The notes under the pieces: model-generated
The model's input: only the letters and a program-made list of their open reading frames with translations
Database searches by the model: none
Told to the model about the DNA's origin: nothing
Part shown: in pieces, positions 3,219-58,729 of the stretch
How the letters are laid out: the number at the start of each line of letters is the position of its first letter
How positions within the stretch are numbered: the first letter of the stretch is position 1
Translations under genes and position numbers: made by a program
Assembly: GCA_038883715.1 (NCBI GenBank)
Contig: JAVZLS010000007.1
Span: 1 to 64,000 of the forward strand
DNA length: 64,000 nt
Reading direction: 5' to 3'
Source: Candidatus Bathyarchaeia archaeon
GTDB lineage: Archaea > Thermoproteota > Bathyarchaeia > Bathyarchaeales > Bathycorpusculaceae

Positions 3219-3641
3219 CTACATTTCTGGCAGTTTTGTTATGTCCCCTAATTTTTTAAAGTGTTTGTCGAAGGTGTAAATTTCGCTTATCCCATGAGCC
3301 TTCATGAATAAATAAGCCAAAGCATCATTGGCACCTATCTCTTTTTCTTTCGCCAATAGTAACGCTGCCTCATAGTCTTTTGCGCCAACCGAGTACACCT
3401 TCACATTCTCGCTTGTCACAACCCACGCCAAAAAGCCCAAAGATTCCTTAATGCCAAGTCCCGCCTCCACTACATTTACAACTTCTGAAAGGTGAACAAC
3501 TGTGATGGCGACCTCTTCACCCTCTTCTATCCTCTTCACAATGGCTTTGGCTTCGTCCTTAACTCTATGCTCATCTTTTGTTAGAGGTCTACGGGGGACC
3601 AAGTAAGCGTGAAGAAAAATGTTTGAATCTACAAACTTCAA
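3219..3641 (-). CDS. vapC: VapC PIN-domain toxin
   Basis: FVDSNIF, SEVV, NDAL and TFDKHF PIN motifs. Confidence 0.9.
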   Translation of the reverse strand: MKFVDSNIFLHAYLVPRRPLTKDEHRVKDEAKAIVKRIEEGEEVAITVVHLSEVVNVVEAGLGIKESLGFLAWVVTSENVKVYSVGAKDYEAALLLAKEKEIGANDALAYLFMKAHGISEIYTFDKHFKKLGDITKLPEM

Positions 3642-3880
3642 CGTTCCTTAAGCTCCGACAAAGCCTTCTTAAGAGCATGAGAATCAGTAAAATCCACATT
3701 TTCAGAAACTCTTATTGAGTCGAACAATGCGGAAGGTGGAAGTGCTTCCACAGAAACTATTTCTATCCTATTTCCCCGTTTTATCAGCGCCAGTTTACGA
3801 GATTTAAAATTCTTCCGCCAGCGTGCTGGAATCGACACTCTCCCTTGAGAGTCGATTTCTTTGACCACAATTTCTGCCAT
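3638..3880 (-). CDS. vapB: AbrB/MazE-type antitoxin
   Basis: IDSQGRVSIPARWR AbrB motif; overlaps the vapC start. Confidence 0.85.
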   Translation of the reverse strand: MAEIVVKEIDSQGRVSIPARWRKNFKSRKLALIKRGNRIEIVSVEALPPSALFDSIRVSENVDFTDSHALKKALSELKER

Positions 3881-3949
3881 TTATATCATCTTCACCAAAA
3901 ATATGAATATGGTGAAATATAAATATTCCCCAAAGAATTTATCATGCTG

Positions 3950-4603
3950 CTACCTTAGCTTGTAGCCCCACTTTTTATTTATTGCCTCAAGCTTTTCTGA
4001 AAGCCTCTTCGCCCTGTCTTCGGCTTCTTCGAAAAGGACAGCCCACTCCCGCCTCTTCACAAGGTTTGTCAGCTTCTCAATGTTTGATGGAATCTTTTCC
4101 ATGGCAGTCAGCCACTTCTTAGTTACAACATCGTCTCCGCTAACAAGTTCCAGGGCTTCTTCTGGACAAAACTCCACACATTGAGGTCCCTCTGGCTTAT
4201 CCTTGCATAGGTCACAGACCAAAACAGACGTCTTATCCGGGTGAAGAGAAATCCCACCATACGGGCAAGCCTGAATACACCAGCCGCATCGGTCACATTT
4301 AGCCTCATCAACAAGGATGAAGCCCTCCTCAGACTGGGTTAAGGCTTTCCTCGGACAAGCCCTAACACATGGGGCGTTCTCACAGAAGCGGCATGTCAAA
4401 GCCAGGTTAAAGGCTGGTGTTAGGCGTACAACCCTGATCCTAGACCTTAAAGGATTCCATAAAGGCTCATTCTTCTCCAAAACACAAACGTATTCGCATA
4501 GGCTGCAGCCCGTGCACTTGGCAGGGTCAACAGCCACAAACTTCCTCTGCACAGCCTTGGCCATCAACGCCATCTCCATCAATTTTGGGTTAAATTTTCT
4601 CAT
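3950..4603 (-). CDS. 4Fe-4S dicluster electron-transfer protein (HydN/CooF-like)
   Basis: Four Cys clusters including CRFCENAPCVRACP. Confidence 0.85.
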   Translation of the reverse strand: MRKFNPKLMEMALMAKAVQRKFVAVDPAKCTGCSLCEYVCVLEKNEPLWNPLRSRIRVVRLTPAFNLALTCRFCENAPCVRACPRKALTQSEEGFILVDEAKCDRCGWCIQACPYGGISLHPDKTSVLVCDLCKDKPEGPQCVEFCPEEALELVSGDDVVTKKWLTAMEKIPSNIEKLTNLVKRREWAVLFEEAEDRAKRLSEKLEAINKKWGYKLR

Positions 4604-4653
4604 GCAAAACCTATTTTTATAATTTCCCTTTTTAGCGGCTCAAATCAACATGG

Positions 4654-5361
4654 CTAAAGCAAAACCCTAACCCTTCCGTTAAGCCAAACCCTATTTTTGG
4701 CAAAACTCGCCGAGTAAGCATAAACCTCCACCCCCTGCCTATAGGCTTCCCGAAGAGCCCTGCCAAATTTTGGATCCGTCTCATCATTCGCTGTAAACCG
4801 GTAGGCATCGTCTCTTTGAATAACAAAAAGCACAGCAGCTCTATAACCATCCTTTAAGGCTTTAACAAGCTCAAAAAGTTGTCGCGTACCTCTCTCGGTT
4901 GGGGCGTCTGGAAACATTGCAATCCCGTAACGGACAAGAGTGCAAGACTTAACCTCTAAAAGGCATGATTTAAGCCCTAAACCTTCAAGGAGAAAGTCGA
5001 ACTTTGCACGCCCATAAGAGTGTTCAGGCTTAATGGCAGTATAACCGGAAAACTCCGGCAATTCCCCATTCCTTAAGGCTTTAAAAACAAGCTTGTTAGG
5101 TATGCGGGCATCAACAGAAACAACTCTGCCGCCATAATAAACGCCTACAAGGTCGTAAGCAGTTTTCCTATAACCGGTAATTCTCGCTTCCTTCAAAACA
5201 ACCTTAACGCCAGAAAACAGTAGCTCACCAAGCCTTCCTGGATTAGGCAAAAAGCACTCTACAATTTTCCCGTCAACCTCGACCTGTGCCGAGAAACGGG
5301 TCAGCCGTTTCCTAAAAACGCCTTCCACAATGTTTCCTTCAATTTCCAAGAAGGTGGGCAA
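4654..5361 (-). CDS. sfsA: SfsA sugar fermentation stimulation / PD-(D/E)xK nuclease-fold protein
   Basis: LPNPGRL, LEVKSCTL, FPDAPTERG motifs. Confidence 0.9.
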   Translation of the reverse strand: MPTFLEIEGNIVEGVFRKRLTRFSAQVEVDGKIVECFLPNPGRLGELLFSGVKVVLKEARITGYRKTAYDLVGVYYGGRVVSVDARIPNKLVFKALRNGELPEFSGYTAIKPEHSYGRAKFDFLLEGLGLKSCLLEVKSCTLVRYGIAMFPDAPTERGTRQLFELVKALKDGYRAAVLFVIQRDDAYRFTANDETDPKFGRALREAYRQGVEVYAYSASFAKNRVWLNGRVRVLL

Positions 5362-5497: not shown

Positions 5498-6619
5498 CTA
5501 CGGAATTATCTCGCAACCAACATACTTTAAGAAGTTGAAATCCTCAACCCTTATCCTGCCAACTCTAATAAGCTCCCTAATTCTTGGCAGCTCAACCACT
5601 ATTGCGTCAATCATGTTCTCAACAGTCTTGCAAACAAGCCTATAGGCTTCGGGGCTCCAGCGTCTCGTGACATTTGCGTATAGGCATCTGCCGCCACAAA
5701 TGCCGAAAATTCCACAGCTTGTGCAAGGCTCGCCCACAAAAATCTTCCTAAGCCTCAATGGATGCGCAGTGCTAATATGCCCAACATAAAAGTCCCGCAT
5801 GCCCCACATGCTTGGACAAGGCACAATATGCCCATCCGTCTGAATAGCATAATTAATCCAACCAGCACCACAACGCAAAAGCGACTTTTCCTCACCAAGC
5901 AAAAGAGACTGCGCCACGTCCAAAAACGGGTAAAGCCTCAAAACAACGCCATGCTTCTCCATCTGGTCAACCCAAAACCTCACAAGGCGGCGAATTCCAG
6001 GATTATAACTTCTCTCAACCCATTCTTTGAAATTCCGCCTCTCAAAATCGTTCCAAAAGCCAGAGTTAAGCTGCCAATGAACAGAAGAAAAGGCAAAATC
6101 ACCATTGCCTAGAAGCCACAAAACCTGCCTATAAATGTCAGTTTCCTCCATAACAGTCATCCGAGCAATAACCTCACCATTAAAGCCATTACGCTTAATC
6201 TGCCTCAAATTCTCCACAACCCGACGGTAAACGCCCCTACCACGATAATAATCGGTTAGGGCCTCATCCCCATCAACAGACACCAGAATAACACTAAAAC
6301 GGTTGACATAGGCTGGTTCTAAACGGTTCAAATGCAAACCATTCGTCTGAACAGCAAAACCCCTAACTCCAACAAAATCCATAATCCGTCTAACATCATC
6401 CAAGCATAAAAGGGGCTCACCACCATAAAAAATCAAAAAACAATCAGAATCCAAACCACAAAAACGCCACAACGAGTCAACATCATAACTTAGACGCCTA
6501 GGCAGAGAATAATCAACATCAAAACCGCCAAAATTGTCAGCAAAATCTTCTAAGGCTTCACCAAAACAGTATCGGCAACGAAGATCACACTCAGTCGTCA
6601 ACATAACATGAAAGAACAT
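5498..6619 (-). CDS. Radical SAM/SPASM protein (resembles the AF0577/TIGR04084 putative peptide-modifying family)
   Basis: CDLRCRYC, YGGEPLL, RCGAG, CTSCGIFGICGGRC SPASM motif, GCEIIP C-terminus. Confidence 0.8.
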   Translation of the reverse strand: MFFHVMLTTECDLRCRYCFGEALEDFADNFGGFDVDYSLPRRLSYDVDSLWRFCGLDSDCFLIFYGGEPLLCLDDVRRIMDFVGVRGFAVQTNGLHLNRLEPAYVNRFSVILVSVDGDEALTDYYRGRGVYRRVVENLRQIKRNGFNGEVIARMTVMEETDIYRQVLWLLGNGDFAFSSVHWQLNSGFWNDFERRNFKEWVERSYNPGIRRLVRFWVDQMEKHGVVLRLYPFLDVAQSLLLGEEKSLLRCGAGWINYAIQTDGHIVPCPSMWGMRDFYVGHISTAHPLRLRKIFVGEPCTSCGIFGICGGRCLYANVTRRWSPEAYRLVCKTVENMIDAIVVELPRIRELIRVGRIRVEDFNFLKYVGCEIIP

Positions 6620-6646: not shown

Positions 6647-7870
6647 TTAGCCTTTGGTAAACTTTTCCTTAACCCGCTTAGCCTTCTCGATATAACTCCT
6701 AAGTTCACGCTCTTTAAGCGTTTTTTCAGGCAAAGTTTCAGGAGCAAACATTAAGGGAACAACGGCTAAAAATAGAAAGAGGGCGGCAAAGGAGAAAATG
6801 GCGTATTCGGGAATTATATCGGTTATAATTTGGCCAAGGGTCTCTCGGAGAAAATTTGAAACGAGGTACGGAATAATACCAATAGCATAGAACTTTTCAC
6901 TTGGCTTATCATGGGCGAGGTCTCCCCATATCGTAACTAAAAAAATCACGTAAAATATCCCCCAAGCAATCCCATCAACGATTGTATAAAATTGCCAAGC
7001 ATACACATTATAGGGATTAATCCCAAGTAGAGCATATCCAAGTCCAAAAATTATGAATCCAAAAATCAACGTTCGCTTACGCCCAACCTTATCTGCGGCG
7101 AAACCTGCCAACAAAGCAGAAATCCCTGCTATGACGTTCCCCGTAACTGTCAGAAAATTAACAAAATCCATGCTGTAAATTTTAGCGCTTATGGGCCAAC
7201 TTAAATAGTTGATTAAAGAAAACATTGCCCATGGAAAAAGGTAGAGAAACACTGAGCGACTTCGCAGAACAAGGATGAAGGATGGGCTTACTCCACGTTT
7301 CTCTTCCAAAAATCTCTTCAAGAGTATAAGACCAAAAATCTCGAGGGATCTCCAAAAAGCCAATACCACCGAATTTAAAAGCATATCTTCAGACATTAGA
7401 AATTTTAAGCTAAAAATCCCAAAAATTACCGAGAGCATAATGACTGAGCCCATCTTAGCACGGTTTTCCTCATTTGTTATGTCTTTAAAGCAAGAAATTA
7501 CTGTCGGTAAACTTATCCCAAAGGACATGCTAAACAAAATTGCAAGGATTACTATGCAATAAACTGGTAACGGCACCGCAAGCGTGAAGGAGGCAATCAC
7601 TCCAATTAAGACTGAAATTGACAGAAGACTTTTCAGTTTAGCAACTCTGCCAACAATAAAAGGTCCAAAAAGAATAGCCACAACAGTTTCAAAAAGCATT
7701 ATGCTGTAAATGGTTAATTTCACAGAATAGGCTAGATTAGCGATATCAACGGCGTTTTTAAGAATGGCGTACGCATATGTGTACCATGCTATTACACTAA
7801 CAGCTGCGATAATATTTCCTAAAAAAATCTTCAGCGAAATCCCTACCCTTGAAAAATGTATAGTAGTCAT
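6647..7870 (-). CDS. MFS transporter
   Basis: About 12 hydrophobic segments; GFAADKVGRKRT MFS motif A. Confidence 0.85.
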   Translation of the reverse strand: MTTIHFSRVGISLKIFLGNIIAAVSVIAWYTYAYAILKNAVDIANLAYSVKLTIYSIMLFETVVAILFGPFIVGRVAKLKSLLSISVLIGVIASFTLAVPLPVYCIVILAILFSMSFGISLPTVISCFKDITNEENRAKMGSVIMLSVIFGIFSLKFLMSEDMLLNSVVLAFWRSLEIFGLILLKRFLEEKRGVSPSFILVLRSRSVFLYLFPWAMFSLINYLSWPISAKIYSMDFVNFLTVTGNVIAGISALLAGFAADKVGRKRTLIFGFIIFGLGYALLGINPYNVYAWQFYTIVDGIAWGIFYVIFLVTIWGDLAHDKPSEKFYAIGIIPYLVSNFLRETLGQIITDIIPEYAIFSFAALFLFLAVVPLMFAPETLPEKTLKERELRSYIEKAKRVKEKFTKG

Positions 7871-7949
7871 TTTGTATCGTCATCTATTAATGCACTGCAA
7901 ACTGACCTAAAATAAGCTGTCGGATAAAAGGGTTTAGGATTTCAAAACT

Positions 7950-8020
7950 TGAGTTTTAATATATAATATAAAGCACAAAGCTTTTAAGTCGTAGTGTTGA
8001 ACAATAATACAGGAGAGGAG
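7950..8020 (+). promoter_or_regulatory. TATA-like region and strong RBS for the 18-aa ORF; divergent from the MFS gene
   Basis: ttttaatatataatata and cttttaagt boxes; aggagaggag at 8011-8020, 2 nt before the ATG. Confidence 0.55.
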
Positions 8021-8022
8021 AA

Positions 8023-8079
8023 ATGAAGACTCGTAAACGGAGGATACCAGCTAGGTATACTAACCTTGGCTGGTGGTAA
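8023..8079 (+). CDS. Putative precursor peptide MKTRKRRIPARYTNLGWW (18 aa)
   Basis: ATG 8023 to TAA 8079, strong RBS, C-terminal Trp-Trp; ends 3 bp from the prenyltransferase stop; too short for the ORF track. Confidence 0.65.
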   Translation: MKTRKRRIPARYTNLGWW

Positions 8080-8082
8080 AAG

Positions 8083-9069
8083 TTACAGATCTTCTAAAAC
8101 TGAACTTGCCATTTTTATAAGGGTATTTATGTTATTAGAATTATATTTCTTTAATTTTTGGCAAGTTTTATTTGCCAAATTCTGAATTTCGATTTCAAAT
8201 TCTTTGACAGTTTTCGTTTTTGAGACAATTTCAGCAACTTTAAAGGCGTCGTCCTCGCTTAATGTTTCCTTTTTAAGTATATCCAAAATTTTTACTCTCG
8301 AATCTTGGTCGCAAAGAGCATATAATATTGGCAAAGGTAGACATTCGTTGTCTCTTCTATTTTTTAGCTCTTCAACCTCAAAAATGTCAATGAATTCGTC
8401 TCTAAAACTCATTAACATACCCAATGATCTGCCAATTTTTCTCCAGTCTTTAATTTTTGGTTGTGTGGCATTCCCTATTATTGCGCCTGTCCATGCTGTA
8501 GCTTCAGAAACAGCCGCCTTTCTCCTGAGAACTTCCAAATATTTTTCTGGAGCGGTATTCCAATCACGTTTGAAGCTTGCCTCCATCGCTTCGGCCACTC
8601 CAAGTTCGGTGAACCCGTTCTCTATAATTTCCTTTATAGTCTCACCCTTTCTCTTCGGAAAATCTCTGCAAGCTACATCCAAAAGTCTAACACCCTCAAA
8701 TAATAATGCATCCCCTGTAAGAAGCGCGATGTCTACGCCGAATTTTCCGAAAATTGTGGCTTTTGAACCTTTATATCTTGATCCATCTATGATGTCGTCA
8801 TGAAGGTCAGCAGCACCTGTTAAGAGCACAAGTGCGGCGCCCACTATTGTTGTCTTTTCAGGTTTACCGCCTACAGCTTCACATGCTATAGCAAGAAGGG
8901 CTGGGTGATGAAAGTTGTGCCATGATTCTATGAAATATTTTATTGCTTCATTTATTTGGTTGCACTCTAAGTCTTTCTTCAGAATTGTTTCCTTCGCAAT
9001 TTCATAGGCTCTTCTTCCAAGCCGTTCACACTCTTCTATAATTTCTTCCGCAATTTTCCTGCTGTTCAT
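8083..9069 (-). CDS. Divergent polyprenyl-synthase-fold prenyltransferase (ComQ-like candidate)
   Basis: First DDIID motif intact; GKRxRP, RRG, GQ and KT motifs absent; second Asp motif degenerate (RDEFID); ATG at 9069 overlaps the upstream TGA. Confidence 0.8.
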   Translation of the reverse strand: MNSRKIAEEIIEECERLGRRAYEIAKETILKKDLECNQINEAIKYFIESWHNFHHPALLAIACEAVGGKPEKTTIVGAALVLLTGAADLHDDIIDGSRYKGSKATIFGKFGVDIALLTGDALLFEGVRLLDVACRDFPKRKGETIKEIIENGFTELGVAEAMEASFKRDWNTAPEKYLEVLRRKAAVSEATAWTGAIIGNATQPKIKDWRKIGRSLGMLMSFRDEFIDIFEVEELKNRRDNECLPLPILYALCDQDSRVKILDILKKETLSEDDAFKVAEIVSKTKTVKEFEIEIQNLANKTCQKLKKYNSNNINTLIKMASSVLEDL

Positions 9070-10103
9070 ATCGCCCACATCCAACCGCTTATGGCACTCC
9101 TGATTTTAATATATATGCAATAAACTTCTAAAATATGCCTTTTATACATCCATTTTCTTAGCTTAACACCCAGTAATAGATTTAGGCCGTAGGCACGTCT
9201 CCAAAGTTTTTCAAATAGCATCATATCATTTTCTGCTATTGCCTGAGCGGCTAGTTCTCCGCCCAAAAGCGCGTAGGGTATGCCTTCTCCATTTATAGGA
9301 TTAACATGTCCTGCCGCATCGCCTATAAGCACCCAATTTGGCCCGGCAACATGACTAAAAAGAGTGCCAGTTTCTTTTACATTTGGAATTAAAGCAGCCC
9401 ATTTCGAAATGATTTTGGTATTAGGACGATTTCTTTTGATGAACAAATCGAGCTCTTTTCTTAGATTTTTGGAATGCGTAGCTTCTGAGCAACCTATCCC
9501 GACGCATGTGTTATCTTTTCTTGGTATTATCCAAATGTAACCTTTTCTGTGGGGAAGAAAATGAAAAGAAATATCCTCGTTTTCAAGATTTTCCACGTAA
9601 TATCCACAACATACGCCTTTATCCGCATTTCTAAATGGGGTGGTGACCTTTTTTTTAACTATGCTGTTAACACCATCTGCACCCACTAACTTTTTAACTG
9701 GATAAATGCTTTTGGCAGTTATTATGTTCCATAATTTCCCTTTTCTCTGAACGTCTACAACCTTTTCCCTTTTAAGCTCAGCACCCTTATCCAAAGCCAT
9801 AGTCAGTAAATATTGGTCGAATTTTAATCTTGACACGCATATGGCTTCACTTTTCTTTAGGTTGACGGAAATTCTCCGTCCGTAAGGGGATACAAGGTAA
9901 ATCACTCTCCTTTTAATGGGATCTATGGGAAGTTTTCTTAAAAATGGGAAAAGCTCTTGGGCTAATGGCGATATTAATCCGCCACATGGTTTTTCTCTTG
10001 GATGCGAGTGATCAAATATGGTTGGGTATATGCCGTTTTCTGCAAGTTTGTACGCACAATAGGCTCCTGCTGGTCCTCCACCTACAATTCCTACTTCAAT
10101 CAT
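9066..10103 (-). CDS. Geranylgeranyl reductase family FAD oxidoreductase
   Basis: GGGPAG, KPCGG, GADG, GYIWIIP, GDAAGHVNPINGEGI motifs. Confidence 0.88.
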   Translation of the reverse strand: MIEVGIVGGGPAGAYCAYKLAENGIYPTIFDHSHPREKPCGGLISPLAQELFPFLRKLPIDPIKRRVIYLVSPYGRRISVNLKKSEAICVSRLKFDQYLLTMALDKGAELKREKVVDVQRKGKLWNIITAKSIYPVKKLVGADGVNSIVKKKVTTPFRNADKGVCCGYYVENLENEDISFHFLPHRKGYIWIIPRKDNTCVGIGCSEATHSKNLRKELDLFIKRNRPNTKIISKWAALIPNVKETGTLFSHVAGPNWVLIGDAAGHVNPINGEGIPYALLGGELAAQAIAENDMMLFEKLWRRAYGLNLLLGVKLRKWMYKRHILEVYCIYIKIRSAISGWMWAI

Positions 10104-10425
10104 TTCCAATCTTGTCTTGTATTAATCCTACTACTGTGTTGTAGCATGTTTCTATGTATGTTTTTCCTTTCTCTGTTATGGCGTATACTTTTCTTATGCG
10201 TTTTCCTTTTTGTTGTTTTTGGCTTGTTATTAGGCCTTTGTTTTCAAGCTTTTTTAGTAGTGGGTATAGGGCTCCGTGGCGTATTTTTAGCCCAGAGAAG
10301 GCTTCTATTTTCTTTTTTATTTTGTATCCCCATGCCGGCTCTTTGTTTATTAGTGCTAATATTTGGATGTCTAGTAGGTTTTTGGTTATGTGTTGAACAA
10401 TTTCTTTTTTGAGGTTTTCTTCCAT
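10096..10425 (-). CDS. PadR family regulator
   Basis: WGYKI, GALYPLLKKLE, RKVYAITEKG. Confidence 0.88.
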   Translation of the reverse strand: MEENLKKEIVQHITKNLLDIQILALINKEPAWGYKIKKKIEAFSGLKIRHGALYPLLKKLENKGLITSQKQQKGKRIRKVYAITEKGKTYIETCYNTVVGLIQDKIGND

Positions 10426-10590: not shown

Positions 10591-11076
10591 ATGTCTAAAA
10601 GTGGACATATCGTATTCGTGTCTAACAGAAATACAGGAAAGGTGGGAAAAGCCGTGGTGAACAGCTCGAAAGAGGTCCAAGTTAAACTTATGAAGGGCCT
10701 CCTAGACCTGATAGTGCTTCAGTTTTTAAGCTCTCAACCCATGCACGGCTATCAGATAATAACCAAGATCCGCAAAAACTTCGGTGTATACTTTGGCCCA
10801 AGCACAATTTACCCGCTTTTAAACGCCTTGGAAAAGAGCGGCTATGTCAAAAGTGAATGGGACATGTCAAACGAACGCCCCAGAAAAGTTTACAAGCTTA
10901 CGGCTGAGGGGCAAAACCTCCTGAACTTTACAGAGGATTCGCTTAACTTCATTTGCAAAAAGATTGGCGCCGCTGGAGTTCCGAAGGGACCAACCATAGG
11001 CGAGGACTTGACACAGCCAGCTTTGCACTCTCTCTTAAAGAGGGTGGAGAAGCATAACCACGGATTCAGCTTCTAA
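10591..11076 (+). CDS. PadR family regulator (true start probably GTG near 10654)
   Basis: MHGYQI, STIYPLLNALE, RKVYKLTAEG. Confidence 0.88.
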   Translation: MSKSGHIVFVSNRNTGKVGKAVVNSSKEVQVKLMKGLLDLIVLQFLSSQPMHGYQIITKIRKNFGVYFGPSTIYPLLNALEKSGYVKSEWDMSNERPRKVYKLTAEGQNLLNFTEDSLNFICKKIGAAGVPKGPTIGEDLTQPALHSLLKRVEKHNHGFSF

Positions 11077-16684: not shown

Positions 16685-18403
16685 TTGACTCAAAGCGGCG
16701 GACAACCAGCTGAAAACATAGAAAAGCATATTACAACATTCTGTAGACGTGTTGCCAACTCTTGTCCAATCACAAGCATTTGCCTATGTGGCGGTGCCTC
16801 GCTTGAAACTCTCAAAAAGAGGGTGGCATTAGAAGTTCTGCTCATAATCAACGGTTTTCAGCCAAAATTGATGAATTATGTTAAATTCTTCCACAACAAA
16901 TCGATAATCGTTTATGCAGTTGATAAATGGGTTTTTGAAAAGGATGTGGAGCGAGGCTTCCTCGGCGAAGCCCTAGCCGTCCAACTTGTTTTCCCATACA
17001 CGCCACTATTGAACGGTGAATATTTGAAGGCTGAAGAGCTTAAACTAAAAAAGCGCCTTATACTCGAGGCTTTAGAAAACCTTGTCATAGACTTTCCAGA
17101 ATTATGCTATGAAATCTACATTAAACCAGAATACTTCATGTACGAAGCCATACACAGCAGAGCGAAGATTTTCCCACCAATCCGTTATATGCTGGCAAAC
17201 TTTCAACGAGAAAATAATGAAAAGGAAAATTTGCAAACCGCCATGGAAGGTTTCCTCCAAGCATTAGAAATTGTGGAAAAAGAAAATGCAGTTACACATA
17301 CAAATGGCTACGTAAAAATTTCAAAAGATTTTGCCGATGCTGTAAAAAACCGAAAAATTCGTTTCACAAACCTCCTAAAAACTGCGCAGAAAACTCTATT
17401 TATGTCCCTTTTAGGGACTTTCCCCAAAATCTTTACGGCTTTAATGCAGAACAAGGACCTACTTCAAAGACTTAAAAATTTTAACTTGGAAACGTTGAAA
17501 GGCTCGTATCACATTGAAGACTCAAAGAGATATTTGTTTGTTCCAACCGTCAACGGGTTAACTCCTTTAGCCGCTGGGATAAGCATTGAGGAGTCAGCAA
17601 AGAGGATTCTATCAGTAAACAAAGACGCGAGCGTCACCATCGAAGAGATTGGCGGCGTTTTTAATGAGATATATCTAGTCAAGGTGCACGCAGACGGACA
17701 AGAGCATAAGGTTGCGGTTAAAACCTTCAAAGACTGGTCGAATTTAAAATGGCTTCCAATAAACATATGGGCTTTTGGAACAAGAACCTTCGCCCTTCTC
17801 GGACAATCAAGACTTGAAAGGGAATGCACCACAAACCAGTTCCTATATAAAAAAGGCTTTTCTGTTCCAAAGCTCCTAGCTATAGACCATAAAAAAAGGC
17901 TTGTCTTTATGGAATACATCAAGGGGGAAAGTCTAGAAAAAATCATTAGGGAAGCCGTAAACGCGAAAAATGAAAGGGAGATCAGAGAGGAATATTTGAA
18001 AATATTGCAGAAGGTTGGCGAGACATTCGCCCGTATCCACGCTTTAAATGTGACTTTGGGAGACACTAAACCGGAAAACATCTTGGTGGGCAAAGAAGGC
18101 GAAATTTACCTCCTAGATTTGGAGCAAGCCTCAAAAGGCGGTGACAAGGCATGGGATATAGCCGAATTTCTTTATTATGCTGGACATTACATGCCACTAT
18201 TTGCGGGCTCTTATTTAGCAGAGCTTATAGCCAAAGCTTTTATTAAGGGCTACTTAAAGGCTGGCGGAGACGTAAAAGCGGTGAAGGATGCTGGAAAAGC
18301 GAAATACACCAAAGTTTTCAGCGTTTTTGTGTTTCCCCACATAATTTTTGCGATATCAAATATTTGTAAAAGAGCGGATGAGCTGAGGTTAATAGATGGT
18401 TAA
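16685..18403 (+). CDS. Protein-kinase-like (Bud32/RIO-like) C-terminal domain with long N-terminal extension
   Basis: VAVK, MEYIKG, GDTKPENIL, LLDLEQ. Confidence 0.75.
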   Translation: MTQSGGQPAENIEKHITTFCRRVANSCPITSICLCGGASLETLKKRVALEVLLIINGFQPKLMNYVKFFHNKSIIVYAVDKWVFEKDVERGFLGEALAVQLVFPYTPLLNGEYLKAEELKLKKRLILEALENLVIDFPELCYEIYIKPEYFMYEAIHSRAKIFPPIRYMLANFQRENNEKENLQTAMEGFLQALEIVEKENAVTHTNGYVKISKDFADAVKNRKIRFTNLLKTAQKTLFMSLLGTFPKIFTALMQNKDLLQRLKNFNLETLKGSYHIEDSKRYLFVPTVNGLTPLAAGISIEESAKRILSVNKDASVTIEEIGGVFNEIYLVKVHADGQEHKVAVKTFKDWSNLKWLPINIWAFGTRTFALLGQSRLERECTTNQFLYKKGFSVPKLLAIDHKKRLVFMEYIKGESLEKIIREAVNAKNEREIREEYLKILQKVGETFARIHALNVTLGDTKPENILVGKEGEIYLLDLEQASKGGDKAWDIAEFLYYAGHYMPLFAGSYLAELIAKAFIKGYLKAGGDVKAVKDAGKAKYTKVFSVFVFPHIIFAISNICKRADELRLIDG

Positions 18404-36991: not shown

Positions 36992-37084
36992 GCCTCGGTA
37001 GCCTAGCCTGGTGGGGCACCGCCTTGGTAAAGCTATAAAGCTGCAAAGAGGCGGTGGTCGCGGGTTCAAATCCCGCCCGAGGCT
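36992..37084 (+). tRNA. tRNA-Thr(GGT) with 19-nt intron (about 37030-37048)
   Basis: ccgcc-ttggta[intron]a-ggcgg; acceptor stem gcctcgg/ccgaggc. Confidence 0.88.
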
Positions 37085-58624: not shown

Positions 58625-58729
58625 GCCGGGGTCTCCTAGTCAGGTAGGGAGCAGGCCTGGAGACACGCATAAACGCCACTAAGCCTGTGGCCCATTTGGG
58701 CCGCGTGGGTTCAAATCCCACCCCCGGCG
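58625..58729 (+). tRNA. tRNA-Ser(GGA) with 19-nt intron (about 58663-58681)
   Basis: caggc-ctggag[intron]a-gcctg; long variable arm; G73. Confidence 0.88.

What the first reader, a model, noticed from the sequence alone, without database searches (positions are those of the whole stretch)
8011..8079. Hidden 18-aa ORF MKTRKRRIPARYTNLGWW with its own promoter and RBS
Seen: aggagaggag directly before the ATG, TATA-like boxes upstream, a basic N-terminal half and a YTNLGWW tail. It is the only plus-strand ORF I found in the gap and stops 3 bp from the convergent prenyltransferase. Inference: leader (basic, with possible Arg cleavage sites) plus core architecture. It is much shorter than Bacillus ComX precursors.
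Basis: partly seen in the sequence, partly recalled or inferred. Interest (0 to 1): 0.85.

Follow-up and report, generated by a model that had tools for sequence, protein, structure and literature searches.

The report
Conserved archaeal mini-peptide beside prenyltransferase-like enzyme
The 18-codon reading frame is a real, conserved mini-gene of Bathyarchaeia that travels with a remodelled prenyl-synthase-like enzyme and a membrane transporter in a swappable gene cassette, and it may be the first archaeal counterpart of bacterial lipid-tagged signalling peptides.

Summary
The ORF is at 8023-8079 (+), with GGAGAGGAG before the ATG, a BRE/TATA upstream, and a stop 3 nt from the stop of a convergent polyprenyl-synthetase-like gene (PPS2). 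It is not chance. The same arrangement recurs at nearly every PPS2 locus examined in Bathyarchaeia, giving 89 distinct peptides of 12-21 aa. Each has a Lys/Arg-rich leader ending in P-[IVM]-R and a 3-9 aa hydrophobic tail. The tail holds Trp in 69 of 89, mostly last or second to last. Arg codons switch between AGR and CGN. In close pairs the leader changes mostly synonymously (32 vs 17 codons), the tail does not (10 vs 20). The promoter is conserved and carries a palindromic operator that recurs only 5' of the neighbouring PadR2 gene. PPS2 keeps the first Asp-rich motif but has lost the IPP-binding residues of the housekeeping GGPP synthases. PPS2, the mini-gene and an MFS transporter form a 3.4-kb cassette replaced wholesale between strains whose flanks are 91% identical. 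Best reading (about 0.45): a ComQ/ComX- or PalQ/PalX-like prenylated, exported peptide. No chemistry or expression is shown, and 20 of 89 tails lack Trp.

The parts
8023..8079 (+). Mini-gene of 18 codons plus stop. The leader is MKTRKRRIPAR and the tail is YTNLGWW.
   Evidence: Family conservation.
8012..8020 (+). Shine-Dalgarno-like GGAGAGGAG, 2 nt before the ATG.
   Evidence: Purine-rich GGAG-type boxes stand at the same place in the aligned loci. The anti-SD of the genome's 16S rRNA 3' end was found.
7976..7989 (+). BRE/TATA element CAAAGCTTTTAAGT. The family consensus is AAnnCTTtTAAG.
   Evidence: 70 sequences. The start of transcription is inferred at about 8007-8011. It was not measured.
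7988..8010 (.). Palindromic operator-like site (GTAnnn-TGT-NNN-ACA-nnATAC) between the TATA box and the inferred start of transcription.
   Evidence: It is the only significant promoter match in the genome (nhmmer E 7e-7).
8083..9084 (-). PPS2, a trans-isoprenyl-diphosphate-synthase-like protein. It keeps the FARM (HDDIID), has a degenerate second motif (RDEFID) and lacks the IPP-binding residues.
6647..7870 (-). MFS transporter, divergent from the mini-gene. It is part of the variable cassette except for its last ~40 codons.
9066..10109 (-). Geranylgeranyl-reductase-family flavoprotein, an accessory member of this allele of the cassette.
   Evidence: TIGR02032, 175.8 bits, cut-off 158.8. It stands between PadR1 and PPS2 in only a few loci.
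10096..10425 (-). PadR1, a PadR-family regulator and first gene of the PadR1-(GGR)-PPS2 string.
10591..11076 (+). PadR2, a PadR-family regulator divergent from PadR1. Its true start is probably downstream of 10637.
   Evidence: Relatives align only from about residue 10-27. A GTG stands at 10654 and an ATG at 10690.
10612..10634 (.). Second copy of the operator, a near-perfect 23-bp palindrome 5' of PadR2.
   Evidence: (3 matches in the window, 0.04 expected).
6773..10152 (.). Hypervariable cassette, replaced as a block between same-genus genomes.
   Evidence: flanks 91% identical to L044, no nucleotide match inside. (a contig joins 6750 to 10137 in runs X2 and X4).
5498..6619 (-). Radical SAM/SPASM protein of the TIGR04084 family. 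It is a conserved flank and only a possible partner.
   Evidence: 299 bits, cut-off 225..

Best explanation
The frame at 8023-8079 is a genuine protein-coding mini-gene. It belongs to a family of 12-21-aa peptides in Bathyarchaeia that always sits tail-to-tail with a remodelled isoprenyl-diphosphate-synthase-like enzyme (PPS2) and head-to-head with an MFS transporter.

The peptide has a conserved cationic leader ending in P-[IVM]-R. After it comes a short, fast-changing, hydrophobic and mostly Trp-rich core.

Proposed mechanism:
- PPS2 still binds an allylic prenyl diphosphate through its first Asp-rich motif. It can no longer bind IPP. It therefore transfers the prenyl chain to the peptide core, to the last or second-to-last Trp in most alleles.
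- In this allele a geranylgeranyl-reductase-like enzyme may then saturate the chain.
- The MFS protein exports the lipopeptide.
- A PadR-type repressor, most likely PadR2, sits on a palindrome between the TATA box and the start of transcription and keeps the mini-gene off until a signal arrives.
- Enzyme, peptide and transporter diversify together as one cassette that is swapped between strains, as comQ-comX-comP is in Bacillus. This points to a strain-specific signal or an antagonistic peptide.

Shown here: the ORF, its conservation and amino-acid-level selection, the promoter and operator, the synteny, the cassette replacement, and the loss of IPP-site residues in PPS2.

Inferred: translation in vivo, prenyl transfer, processing at Arg, export, PadR binding, and the biological role.
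For: 1. Recurrence.
- A convergent mini-ORF lies at the PPS2 3' end in every relatives' locus with sequence downstream.
- In the genome-contig loci it was found in 62 of 79 by a strict peptide pattern and in 14 more by looking downstream of the promoter. Only L086, L099 and L117 lack it, and these three also lack the downstream MFS gene.
- There are 89 distinct peptides.

2. Coding signature.
- The invariant Arg uses AGA 34, CGA 16, AGG 12, CGT 5, CGC 4, CGG 3. The Pro before it uses all four codons (74 sequences).
- In 14 non-overlapping close pairs, leader codon changes are 32 synonymous to 17 non-synonymous. Tail changes are 10 to 20 (Fisher p 0.01).

3. Promoter.
- The consensus of 70 sequences is caacAAancTTtTAAGtatatnTGTtcaACAnatATACAg.
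- The strict operator 16-mer occurs 3 times in the window against 0.04 expected.
- It occurs 25 times in 282.6 kb of relatives' loci, always at the mini-gene promoter or 5' of PadR2.

4. PPS2 is not a normal synthase. Compared with the housekeeping GGPPS paralogues of the same genomes it has lost:
- GGKRWRP (now W-x-[DN]-x-x-x-P),
- the RRG after the FARM,
- GQxxD,
- the FQ before the second motif,
- the EGK of the last region.
It keeps D96, D97 and D100 invariant. The fold is a confident trans-IDS fold (pLDDT 94.3; 1wy0 TM 0.83, Ord1 TM 0.69).

5. Precedent. ComQ, PalQ and StheQ are trans-IDS-like enzymes with a FARM and a degenerate second motif. They prenylate a Trp at or near the C-terminus of a peptide encoded next door. 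Here the last Trp is second to last in 46 peptides and last in 15, out of 69 Trp-bearing tails. The window's tail ends in GWW, and (passages of the review PMC13290415) reports that a Gly before the acceptor Trp helps PalQ.

6. Cassette.
- Flanks are 91% identical in DNA to L044, but nothing aligns between window 6772 and 10153.
- Across same-genus loci PPS2 is 33-47% and MFS 35-52% identical, while the flanking proteins are about 65-98% identical (82-98% in L042 and L044).
- In two metagenome runs a contig joins 6750 to 10137.
- Tail type follows the PPS2 tree: 20 of the 26 rows of one clade have Trp-less tails.

7. Predicted complex. The L065 enzyme was run with the 30-aa ORF form of its peptide. 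The verdict was weak support, score 0.52 against a best control of 0.02 (3 controls).
- The mark was reached by 58 of 80 solved complexes and 2 of 110 mismatched pairs. At 0.60 or under it was reached by only 7 of those 80 and by both mismatches that passed.
- The runs agree in at least 53% of contacts, and the partner's pLDDT is at least 48.
Against: - No transcript, peptide or modified product has been seen.
- 20 of 89 tails have no Trp, 11 have neither Trp nor Tyr, and 6 have no aromatic residue at all, such as AGP, AGM, VML, LCL and LSI. All characterised trans-IDS-like peptide prenyltransferases are Trp-specific.
- PPS2 lacks the Gln upstream of the second motif that the review links to Trp recognition. 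Its second motif is [DEN][DE]xxD, not the NDxxx pseudo-SARM of ComQ and StheQ.
- Its closest sequence and structure relatives are ordinary GGPP synthases.
- The precursor is far shorter than StheX (69 aa) or PalX (cleaved after residue 72). No protease gene is in the cassette.
- The genes converge, so enzyme and substrate are not co-transcribed.
- Part of the peptide set was picked with a pattern that demands basic residues and x-x-R, so the motif statistics are partly circular. The promoter-anchored count is the less biased one.
- All sequences are from metagenome-assembled genomes.
Confidence: 0.45

Rival explanations
1. The peptide is a micro-subunit or cofactor of PPS2, not its substrate. 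Its Lys/Arg-rich segment with the invariant Arg supplies in trans the diphosphate-binding basic residues that PPS2 has lost, or it gates the active site. The enzyme then works only when the mini-gene is derepressed.
For: PPS2 has lost every basic residue of the IPP/diphosphate sites (GGKRxRP, RRG, EGK). The peptide's conserved part is exactly a K/R-rich stretch ending in P-[IVM]-R, in several alleles K-P-I-R-P. The two genes co-occur strictly. The complex prediction gave weak support: 0.52 against a best control of 0.02. The mark was reached by 58 of 80 solved complexes and 2 of 110 mismatches; at 0.60 or under by only 7 of 80 and by both mismatches that passed. Contact agreement was at least 53% and the partner's pLDDT at least 48. 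Heteromeric prenyl synthases with a small second subunit exist among the structural neighbours (3aqb, 9kp1).
Against: The tail is free to vary and changes mostly non-synonymously, which is odd for a structural subunit. The constant link to an MFS transporter and the wholesale cassette replacement are not explained. The genes converge and have separate promoters. Known small subunits are proteins of over 100 aa (recalled), not 12-21 aa.
Confidence: 0.12
2. The peptide acts unmodified as a cationic, Trp-rich, membrane-active peptide (an archaeocin-like weapon or membrane effector). The MFS protein is its exporter or immunity pump. PPS2 makes a separate lipid product.
For: The composition is that of Arg/Trp-rich antimicrobial peptides (recalled): the leader's median net charge is +5, W is the commonest tail residue, and only 1 of 89 tails holds an acidic residue. 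Hypervariable cassettes fit an arms race. Pairing of a PadR regulator with an MFS efflux pump is common (recalled).
Against: It does not explain why a remodelled synthase that cannot bind IPP is the most constant neighbour and co-diversifies with the tail. Peptides of 12-14 aa with tails such as AGP or VML are unlikely to disrupt membranes.
Confidence: 0.12
3. The peptide is the substrate of the neighbouring radical SAM/SPASM enzyme (TIGR04084), which would cross-link the Arg/Lys part to the aromatic tail, with or without later prenylation.
For: The enzyme scores above the family cut-off (299 bits against 225) and resembles peptide maturases such as PapB, DynA, YhhB and FxsB at E 1e-10 to 1e-25. 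It lies next to the MFS gene in all f1-family loci and in 51 of 80 genome-contig loci. Within family f1 it was found in exactly the genomes that have PPS2.
Against: It lies outside the variable cassette. It was not found in G030 and G032, which have the cassette. It is unlinked in G025, G026, G031 and G040. Orthologues at 55-64% identity sit in other gene contexts, without MFS or operator, in G027, G029, G033, G034 and G037, which lack a PPS2-type gene. No link between its presence and tail type is visible.
Confidence: 0.08
4. The unit works as RNA. Convergent transcription or an antisense 3' overlap controls PPS2 and the MFS gene, and the short frame is incidental.
For: The stops lie -41 to +20 nt apart in 62 of 94 loci, so the transcripts must overlap. 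The promoter is strong-looking and tightly operated, and it fires against the PPS2-to-MFS direction.
Against: Arg and Pro codon switching, a fixed frame, a fixed start with an SD box, and the excess of synonymous change in the leader show selection on the amino-acid sequence. Rfam finds no RNA family here.
Confidence: 0.03

Closest known systems
ComQ/ComX of Bacillus, and StheQ/StheX of Sphaerobacter
   Same: An enzyme with a trans-IDS fold, an intact first Asp-rich motif and a degenerate second one stands beside a small gene whose product has Trp within the last three residues. The enzyme, the peptide and a membrane partner are polymorphic as a block; the Bacillus comQXP polymorphism is recalled, not read here.
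   Different: PPS2 is nearest to archaeal GGPP synthases, not to ComQ, and has no NDxxx pseudo-SARM. The precursor is 12-21 aa against 69 aa for StheX. The genes converge. The membrane partner is an MFS transporter, not the ComP kinase. The regulators are PadR-type. 20 of 89 tails lack Trp. The host is an archaeon.
PalQ/PalX of Paenibacillus alvei
   Same: PalQ prenylates a C-terminal Trp and prefers Gly before the acceptor Trp. The proposed core DNVRRFFW is short, basic and aromatic. The window's peptide ends in LGWW.
   Different: PalX has a long NHLP leader and is cleaved after residue 72. PalQ keeps a Gln before the second motif, and PPS2 has none. The PalQ cluster holds a histidine kinase.
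Canonical archaeal GGPP synthase (IdsA type; 1wy0)
   Same: It is the best sequence and structure match (E 3e-40 with the family profile; TM 0.83). The FARM is the same.
   Different: PPS2 lacks GGKRxRP, RRG, GQxxD, FQ and EGK, and its second motif is relaxed. All NCBIfam synthase models score far below their cut-offs (best 96 bits against 468). The genome has a separate housekeeping copy at C4:52995-53735.
Microcin C type clusters (tiny precursor, modifying enzyme, MFS exporter)
   Same: The architecture is alike: a ribosomal peptide of very few residues, one tailoring enzyme and an MFS pump (recalled, no call).
   Different: The chemistry differs (adenylation against presumed prenylation), the proteins are unrelated, and those clusters are bacterial.
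PadR-controlled efflux systems such as LmrR or LadR
   Same: A PadR-family regulator stands beside a transporter, with a palindromic operator over the promoter (the operator is seen here; the comparison is recalled).
   Different: Here the operated promoter drives a mini-gene, not the pump. Binding has not been tested.

Membership tests
ComQ-family / trans-IDS-like peptide prenyltransferase | All-alpha trans-isoprenyl-diphosphate-synthase fold | tested here: met
   AlphaFold2 model with pLDDT 94.3. Foldseek: 1wy0 TM 0.83, Ord1 9v4h TM 0.69.
ComQ-family / trans-IDS-like peptide prenyltransferase | Intact first Asp-rich motif DDxxD | tested here: met
   D96, D97 and D100 are invariant in 21 sequences and in 39 sequences.
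ComQ-family / trans-IDS-like peptide prenyltransferase | Pseudo-SARM NDxxx, as stated for ComQ and StheQ | tested here: not met
   PPS2 has [DENH][DE]xxD with only the last Asp invariant. The motif is relaxed, but it is not N-D.
ComQ-family / trans-IDS-like peptide prenyltransferase | Gln just upstream of the second motif, linked to Trp recognition | tested here: not met
   The position of the canonical FQ holds S, N, T, A, G, I, L or V in PPS2, followed by a nearly invariant Arg.
ComQ-family / trans-IDS-like peptide prenyltransferase | Adjacent gene for a peptide with Trp at or near the C-terminus | tested here: met
   69 of 89 distinct peptides have Trp in the tail, and in 64 of them the last Trp is within the last 3 residues. 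20 of 89 have none.
ComQ-family / trans-IDS-like peptide prenyltransferase | Prenyl transfer to the peptide demonstrated | not testable with these tools
   Needs an enzyme assay and mass spectrometry.
Chain-elongating trans-isoprenyl diphosphate synthase | IPP-binding basic residues (GGKRxRP, RRG after the FARM, EGK in the last region) | tested here: not met
   Alignment with five housekeeping paralogues and with 1wy0.
Chain-elongating trans-isoprenyl diphosphate synthase | FQ plus a strict DDxxD second motif | tested here: not met
   Every NCBIfam synthase model scores below its cut-off.
RiPP-type precursor peptide | Conserved leader and variable core | tested here: met
   Leader 32 synonymous to 17 non-synonymous codon changes; tail 10 to 20. 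The Arg at the junction is invariant.
RiPP-type precursor peptide | Tailoring enzyme and exporter encoded alongside | tested here: met
   PPS2 is convergent at all but three loci, and MFS lies downstream in 75 of 80 loci.
RiPP-type precursor peptide | Leader protease, and detection of the mature product | not tested
   The cassette holds no protease gene. No peptidomics data were available.
TIGR04084 radical SAM/SPASM family (flanking gene) | Score above the curated cut-off | tested here: met
   299.1 bits against 225.
PadR regulon | The same palindromic operator at the regulator's own gene and at the target | tested here: met
   Sites at 7995-8010 and 10612-10634. In relatives the motif occurs only at these two kinds of place. 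Protein binding was not tested.

The most novel reading that the evidence does not exclude
Bathyarchaeia carry a strain-specific chemical language or weapon. A 12-21-aa ribosomal peptide is lipidated by an independently evolved, archaeal, IDS-derived peptide prenyltransferase and then exported by its own MFS pump. It exists in many mutually exclusive 'pherotype' alleles that recombine between strains. In the Trp-less alleles the enzyme would have to modify a residue other than Trp, which no characterised enzyme of this fold does. This would be the first peptide-pheromone-like system and the first prenylated RiPP of Archaea, with the smallest precursors known for this chemistry.
Probability: 0.3. 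Interest if true: 0.92.

Novelty: new variant of a known kind. Interest (0 to 1): 0.8.

Why it matters
Peptide-based signalling and prenylated ribosomal peptides are known only from bacteria in what I could read. Cell-to-cell communication and antagonism in uncultured archaea are largely unknown. Here a gene too small for gene callers turns out to be the fixed centre of a conserved, tightly regulated and hypervariable cassette in a widespread sediment and hot-spring lineage.

The idea can be tested directly with one synthetic peptide, one recombinant enzyme and prenyl diphosphates.

- If the enzyme works as proposed, it is a thermophile-derived peptide lipidation catalyst with very short recognition sequences.
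- The Trp-less alleles would widen the known chemistry of this fold.
- If instead the peptide completes the enzyme's active site, that would be a new kind of micro-subunit.

Tried and rejected
Rfam at gathering thresholds and ARAGORN found only tRNAs in the window and nothing at 7900-8100. I therefore dropped a structured-RNA or C/D-box reading.

A SecM-like arrest peptide crossed my mind because the L043 peptide ends in IRAGP (motif recalled). I dropped it because no gene lies downstream on the same strand and the tail is otherwise variable.

I first took the radical SAM/SPASM gene for the likely maturase. Searches show that it is a conserved flank that also occurs without the cassette, so it is now a minor rival.

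Presence or absence of the cassette within the genus cannot be trusted. In G010 and G012, which gave no PPS2 hit, the contig ends right at the neighbouring amidohydrolase gene, so the cassette may simply be unassembled.

The look-up of sequencing runs listed no RNA holder. Two runs labelled metatranscriptomic are probably DNA and are kept as contigs. This says nothing about expression.

In read laying the low contig depth over the cassette in runs X7 and X8, and the depth contrast between cassette and flanks in X2 and X4, cannot rank genes. I do not use them as evidence. Only the contig that joins 6750 to 10137 and the 3438-nt contig spanning 6670-10110 are used.

The Atlas search only returned 'polyprenyl synthetase' clusters of Bathyarchaeota. 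The searches for TIGR04084 and AF0577 found nothing relevant.

Supplementary files of the PalQ and StheQ papers (motif alignments, cluster figures) were not open to me. They could sharpen or weaken the motif comparison.

The treekit tree is the quick tree, because the careful search did not finish. It is midpoint-rooted for drawing only. Linked genes share ancestry, so clustering of tail types on it does not prove co-evolution.
Full report
**What is there.** The window comes from an archaeon. It has intron-bearing tRNAs, and relatives' records are titled Bathyarchaeia or Bathyarchaeota. The genome held is 1.33 Mb in 41 contigs, and the window is C7:1-64000.

It is preceded by GGAGAGGAG at 8012-8020, which pairs in part with the 16S rRNA 3' end found at C1:54393. 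The stop lies 3 nt from the stop codon (8083-8085) of a convergent gene with the Pfam polyprenyl_synt domain. I call that gene PPS2.

On the minus strand the order of transcription is:
- PadR1 (10096-10425),
- a geranylgeranyl-reductase-family gene (9066-10109),
- PPS2 (8083-9084),
- the gap that holds the mini-ORF on the opposite strand,
- an MFS transporter (6647-7870),
- a radical SAM/SPASM gene (5498-6619).

A second PadR gene, PadR2, diverges from PadR1.

**Is it more than chance?** PPS2 is a second, divergent copy. The housekeeping GGPP synthase lies at C4:52995-53735. PPS2-type genes (E 2e-42 or better) were found in 21 of 41 genomes of the order, the window's own included.

In every relatives' locus with sequence beyond the PPS2 stop there is a convergent mini-ORF of the same build. 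A scan of one genome per species found 210 further loci, of which 80 were fetched.
- 79 of the 80 had enough downstream sequence.
- 62 of those showed the mini-ORF by a strict peptide pattern.
- Looking downstream of the conserved promoter in the remaining 17 found it in 14 more, with P-M-R, S-V-R or P-F-R in place of P-[IV]-R.
- Five loci (L073, L078, L087, L089, L107) have no ATG, GTG or TTG in frame, so they probably use ACG or ATT as start.
- Only L086, L099 and L117 have none, and these three also lack the downstream MFS gene.

A count that does not start from the peptide gives the same answer. Of 68 distinct operator+TATA sites, 56 are followed within 10-55 nt by a qualifying mini-ORF, against 184 of 5000 random positions.

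**The peptide family.** There are 89 distinct peptides of 12-21 aa, median 16.
- The leader is Lys/Arg-rich with a median net charge of +5. It ends in P-I-R (40), P-V-R (24), P-M-R (7) or close variants.
- The tail has 3-9 residues. W is its commonest residue, and 1 of 89 tails holds an acidic residue.
- Trp occurs in 69 of 89 tails. The last Trp is second to last in 46 and last in 15.
- 78 tails have W or Y, and 83 have W, Y or F. Six have no aromatic residue at all (AGP, AGM, VML, LCL, LSI and the like).

**Selection acts on the amino acids.**
- The invariant Arg is written with six codons from both codon families (AGA 34, CGA 16, AGG 12, CGT 5, CGC 4, CGG 3).
- The Pro before it uses all four codons.
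- Third positions carry little information (74 sequences). That set was partly chosen by the motif.
- In 14 non-overlapping pairs of close alleles, the leader shows 32 synonymous and 17 non-synonymous codon changes. The tail shows 10 and 20 (Fisher p 0.01).

So the leader is under purifying selection and the tail is not.

**Promoter and operator.** Seventy upstream regions align to caacAAancTTtTAAGtatatnTGTtcaACAnatATACAg, followed by a purine-rich box and the start codon.

The BRE/TATA element is at 7976-7989 in the window. A palindrome of about 23 bp (GTAnnn-TGT-NNN-ACA-nnATAC) lies between it and the inferred start of transcription. The arms mirror each other at 466 of 680 positions, of which the inner three are fixed by the search pattern. 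Many loci carry a second copy just upstream of the TATA box.

In the window's genome this promoter is unique (nhmmer E 7e-7). The next best hit (E 0.19) lies 5' of PadR2. There the sequence GTATTCGTGTCTAACAGAAATAC is an almost perfect palindrome.

The strict 16-mer occurs 3 times in the window against 0.04 expected. It occurs 25 times in 282.6 kb of relatives' loci, always at the mini-gene promoter or 5' of PadR2.

I infer a PadR-type repressor, most likely the autoregulated PadR2, that covers the start site of the mini-gene. Binding was not tested.

**PPS2 is not an ordinary synthase.** Its model has a confident trans-IDS fold (pLDDT 94.3). The best match is the Pyrococcus GGPP synthase 1wy0 (TM 0.83). 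The free-tryptophan farnesyltransferase Ord1 comes at rank 20 (TM 0.69).

The first Asp-rich motif is invariant. Compared with five housekeeping paralogues and with 1wy0, PPS2 shows these replacements:
- GGKRWRP becomes W-x-[DN]-x-x-x-P.
- RRG after the FARM becomes K-x-x.
- GQxxD becomes A-E-A-x-E.
- The FQ before the second motif becomes x-R.
- EGK(R/T) becomes N-E-C-L, with a six-residue deletion.
- In the second motif only the last Asp is invariant.

From established knowledge of this family these are the residues that hold IPP, so chain elongation is unlikely. All NCBIfam synthase models score far below their cut-offs (best 96 bits against 468).

What remains is a site for an allylic diphosphate plus a free acceptor site. 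This is the situation described for ComQ, PalQ and StheQ. PPS2 nevertheless lacks their NDxxx pseudo-SARM and the Gln implicated in Trp recognition. I therefore read it as an independent, archaeal offshoot of GGPP synthase and not as a member of the ComQ family.

**Synteny and the cassette.** PPS2, the mini-gene and MFS are the constant core.
- MFS follows on the PPS2 strand in all relatives' loci with room.
- It does so in 75 of 80 genome-contig loci. Two of the exceptions end at a contig border, and three are the loci without a mini-gene.
- PadR1 precedes PPS2 in 40 of 80 loci, and the rSAM gene follows MFS in 51 of 80.
- The reductase stands between PadR1 and PPS2 only in the window, three relatives (L036, L042, L043), and L072 and L088.

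Within the window's own genus the flanking proteins (ABC protein, amidohydrolase, PadR2, rSAM, SfsA-like, Fe-S protein) are about 65-98% identical to the window's, and 82-98% in L042 and L044. PPS2 is 33-47% identical and MFS 35-52%.

At the DNA level the match to L044 is 91% up to window 6772 and again from 10153, with nothing alignable between. Four other same-genus loci break at the same places. The replaced block thus holds most of MFS, the mini-gene, PPS2, the reductase and the C-terminal tip of PadR1.

In two metagenome runs from a study other than the likely source, one 3438-nt contig spans 6670-10110. Another contig joins 6750 to 10137, skipping 3386 nt, with the content between not known and a side of 41 letters. 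This fits other alleles on the same flanks in the same community.

On the quick PPS2 tree, genomes of one genus fall in distant clades. Trp-less tails concentrate in one clade (20 of its 26 rows). Linked genes share ancestry, so this shows joint inheritance and not proven co-adaptation.

**The rSAM/SPASM gene.** It belongs to TIGR04084. In family f1 it was found in exactly the genomes with PPS2. Against a dedicated role:
- It lies outside the replaced block.
- It was not found in G030 and G032, which have the cassette.
- It is unlinked in G025, G026, G031 and G040.
- It occurs in other contexts, without MFS or operator, in five genomes without a PPS2-type gene.

I treat it as a flank and keep it as a minor rival.

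**Mechanism proposed.** The peptide is made from its own repressed promoter. PPS2 binds the cationic leader and lipidates the core. The MFS protein exports the product. The allele-specific triad gives strain-specific signals or weapons.

The one test of binding that I could run used the L065 enzyme and the 30-aa ORF form of its peptide. The verdict was weak support:
- The score was 0.52 against a best control of 0.02 (3 controls).
- The mark was reached by 58 of 80 solved complexes and 2 of 110 mismatched pairs.
- At 0.60 or under it was reached by only 7 of those 80 and by both mismatches that passed.
- The runs agree in at least 53% of contacts, and the partner's pLDDT is at least 48.
- No interface was given.

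**Weak points.**
- There is no expression or product evidence.
- A fifth of the tails lack Trp, while all characterised enzymes of this kind are Trp-specific.
- No protease is present.
- The genes converge.
- The data are from MAGs only.
- The peptide selection is partly circular.

**Comparison with print.** I read passages and section 2.1 of the PalQ paper (PMC10853753). I read passages and section 2.4 of a 2026 review (PMC13290415). I read the abstract and passages of the StheQ preprint (10.64898/2026.08.29.745113). The examples whose hosts I saw named are bacterial: Bacillus, Paenibacillus and Sphaerobacter.

Four full-text searches found no archaeal case and nothing on this cassette. The library does not hold most subscription journals, and supplements were closed, so this is no proof of absence from print.

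**Verdict.** The mini-gene is real and conserved. It is the fixed partner of a neofunctionalised IDS-like enzyme and an MFS transporter, in a recombining hypervariable cassette under a PadR-type operator. The ComX-like reading is the best-supported mechanism, at a confidence of about 0.45. The system is not a member of the ComQ family by sequence features.

Noticed in passing
L073, L078, L087, L089, L107 (mini-ORF region downstream of PPS2): Five related loci keep the promoter, the SD box and the frame (for example ...KPIRPIRSWWM) but have no ATG, GTG or TTG. The frame would have to start at ACG or ATT, about 5-8 nt after GGAGG.
   Followed up: partly
window 10605-10637: A near-perfect 23-bp palindrome lies inside the annotated 5' end of PadR2. 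The true PadR2 start is probably the GTG at 10654 or the ATG at 10690, since relatives align only from residue 10-27 on.
   Followed up: partly
L049 (G001:C22) 7875-8109: A second cassette copy exists in one same-genus genome. Its PadR1 gene is matched in three pieces in different frames, so it looks like a pseudogene. The mini-ORF there (tail NMCWWWT) overlaps the PPS2 3' end by 41 nt.
   Followed up: no
L034 (G030:C13) and L128; also L067, L078, L098: These loci hold two PPS2-type genes. In L034 they are tandem, and only the downstream one is followed by a mini-ORF.
   Followed up: no
G010:C5 end at 67567; G012:C83 end at 17823: In same-genus MAGs without a PPS2 hit, the contigs stop right next to the amidohydrolase that flanks the cassette. 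The hypervariable block probably breaks assemblies, so cassette absence in MAGs is unreliable.
   Followed up: partly
L032 (G001:C30) 3393-4738: The rSAM/SPASM gene is matched in two overlapping pieces (residues 1-351 and 310-373). This suggests a frameshift or a small duplication near its 3' end.
   Followed up: no
window 36992-37084 and 58625-58729: Rfam calls tRNAs of 93 and 105 nt, probably with introns. ARAGORN leaves the first without an assigned amino acid and misses the second.
   Followed up: no
PPS2 C-terminus (window 8086-8097 and relatives): Many PPS2 proteins end in the acidic motif [LI]-E-D-L. A possible docking role for the cationic leader is pure speculation.
   Followed up: no
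L072, L117, L120 record titles: Three PPS2 loci sit in records labelled Caldiserica, Actinomycetota and Nanoarchaeia. L072 and L120 carry the full Bathyarchaeia-type cassette, so mis-binning seems more likely than transfer.
   Followed up: no
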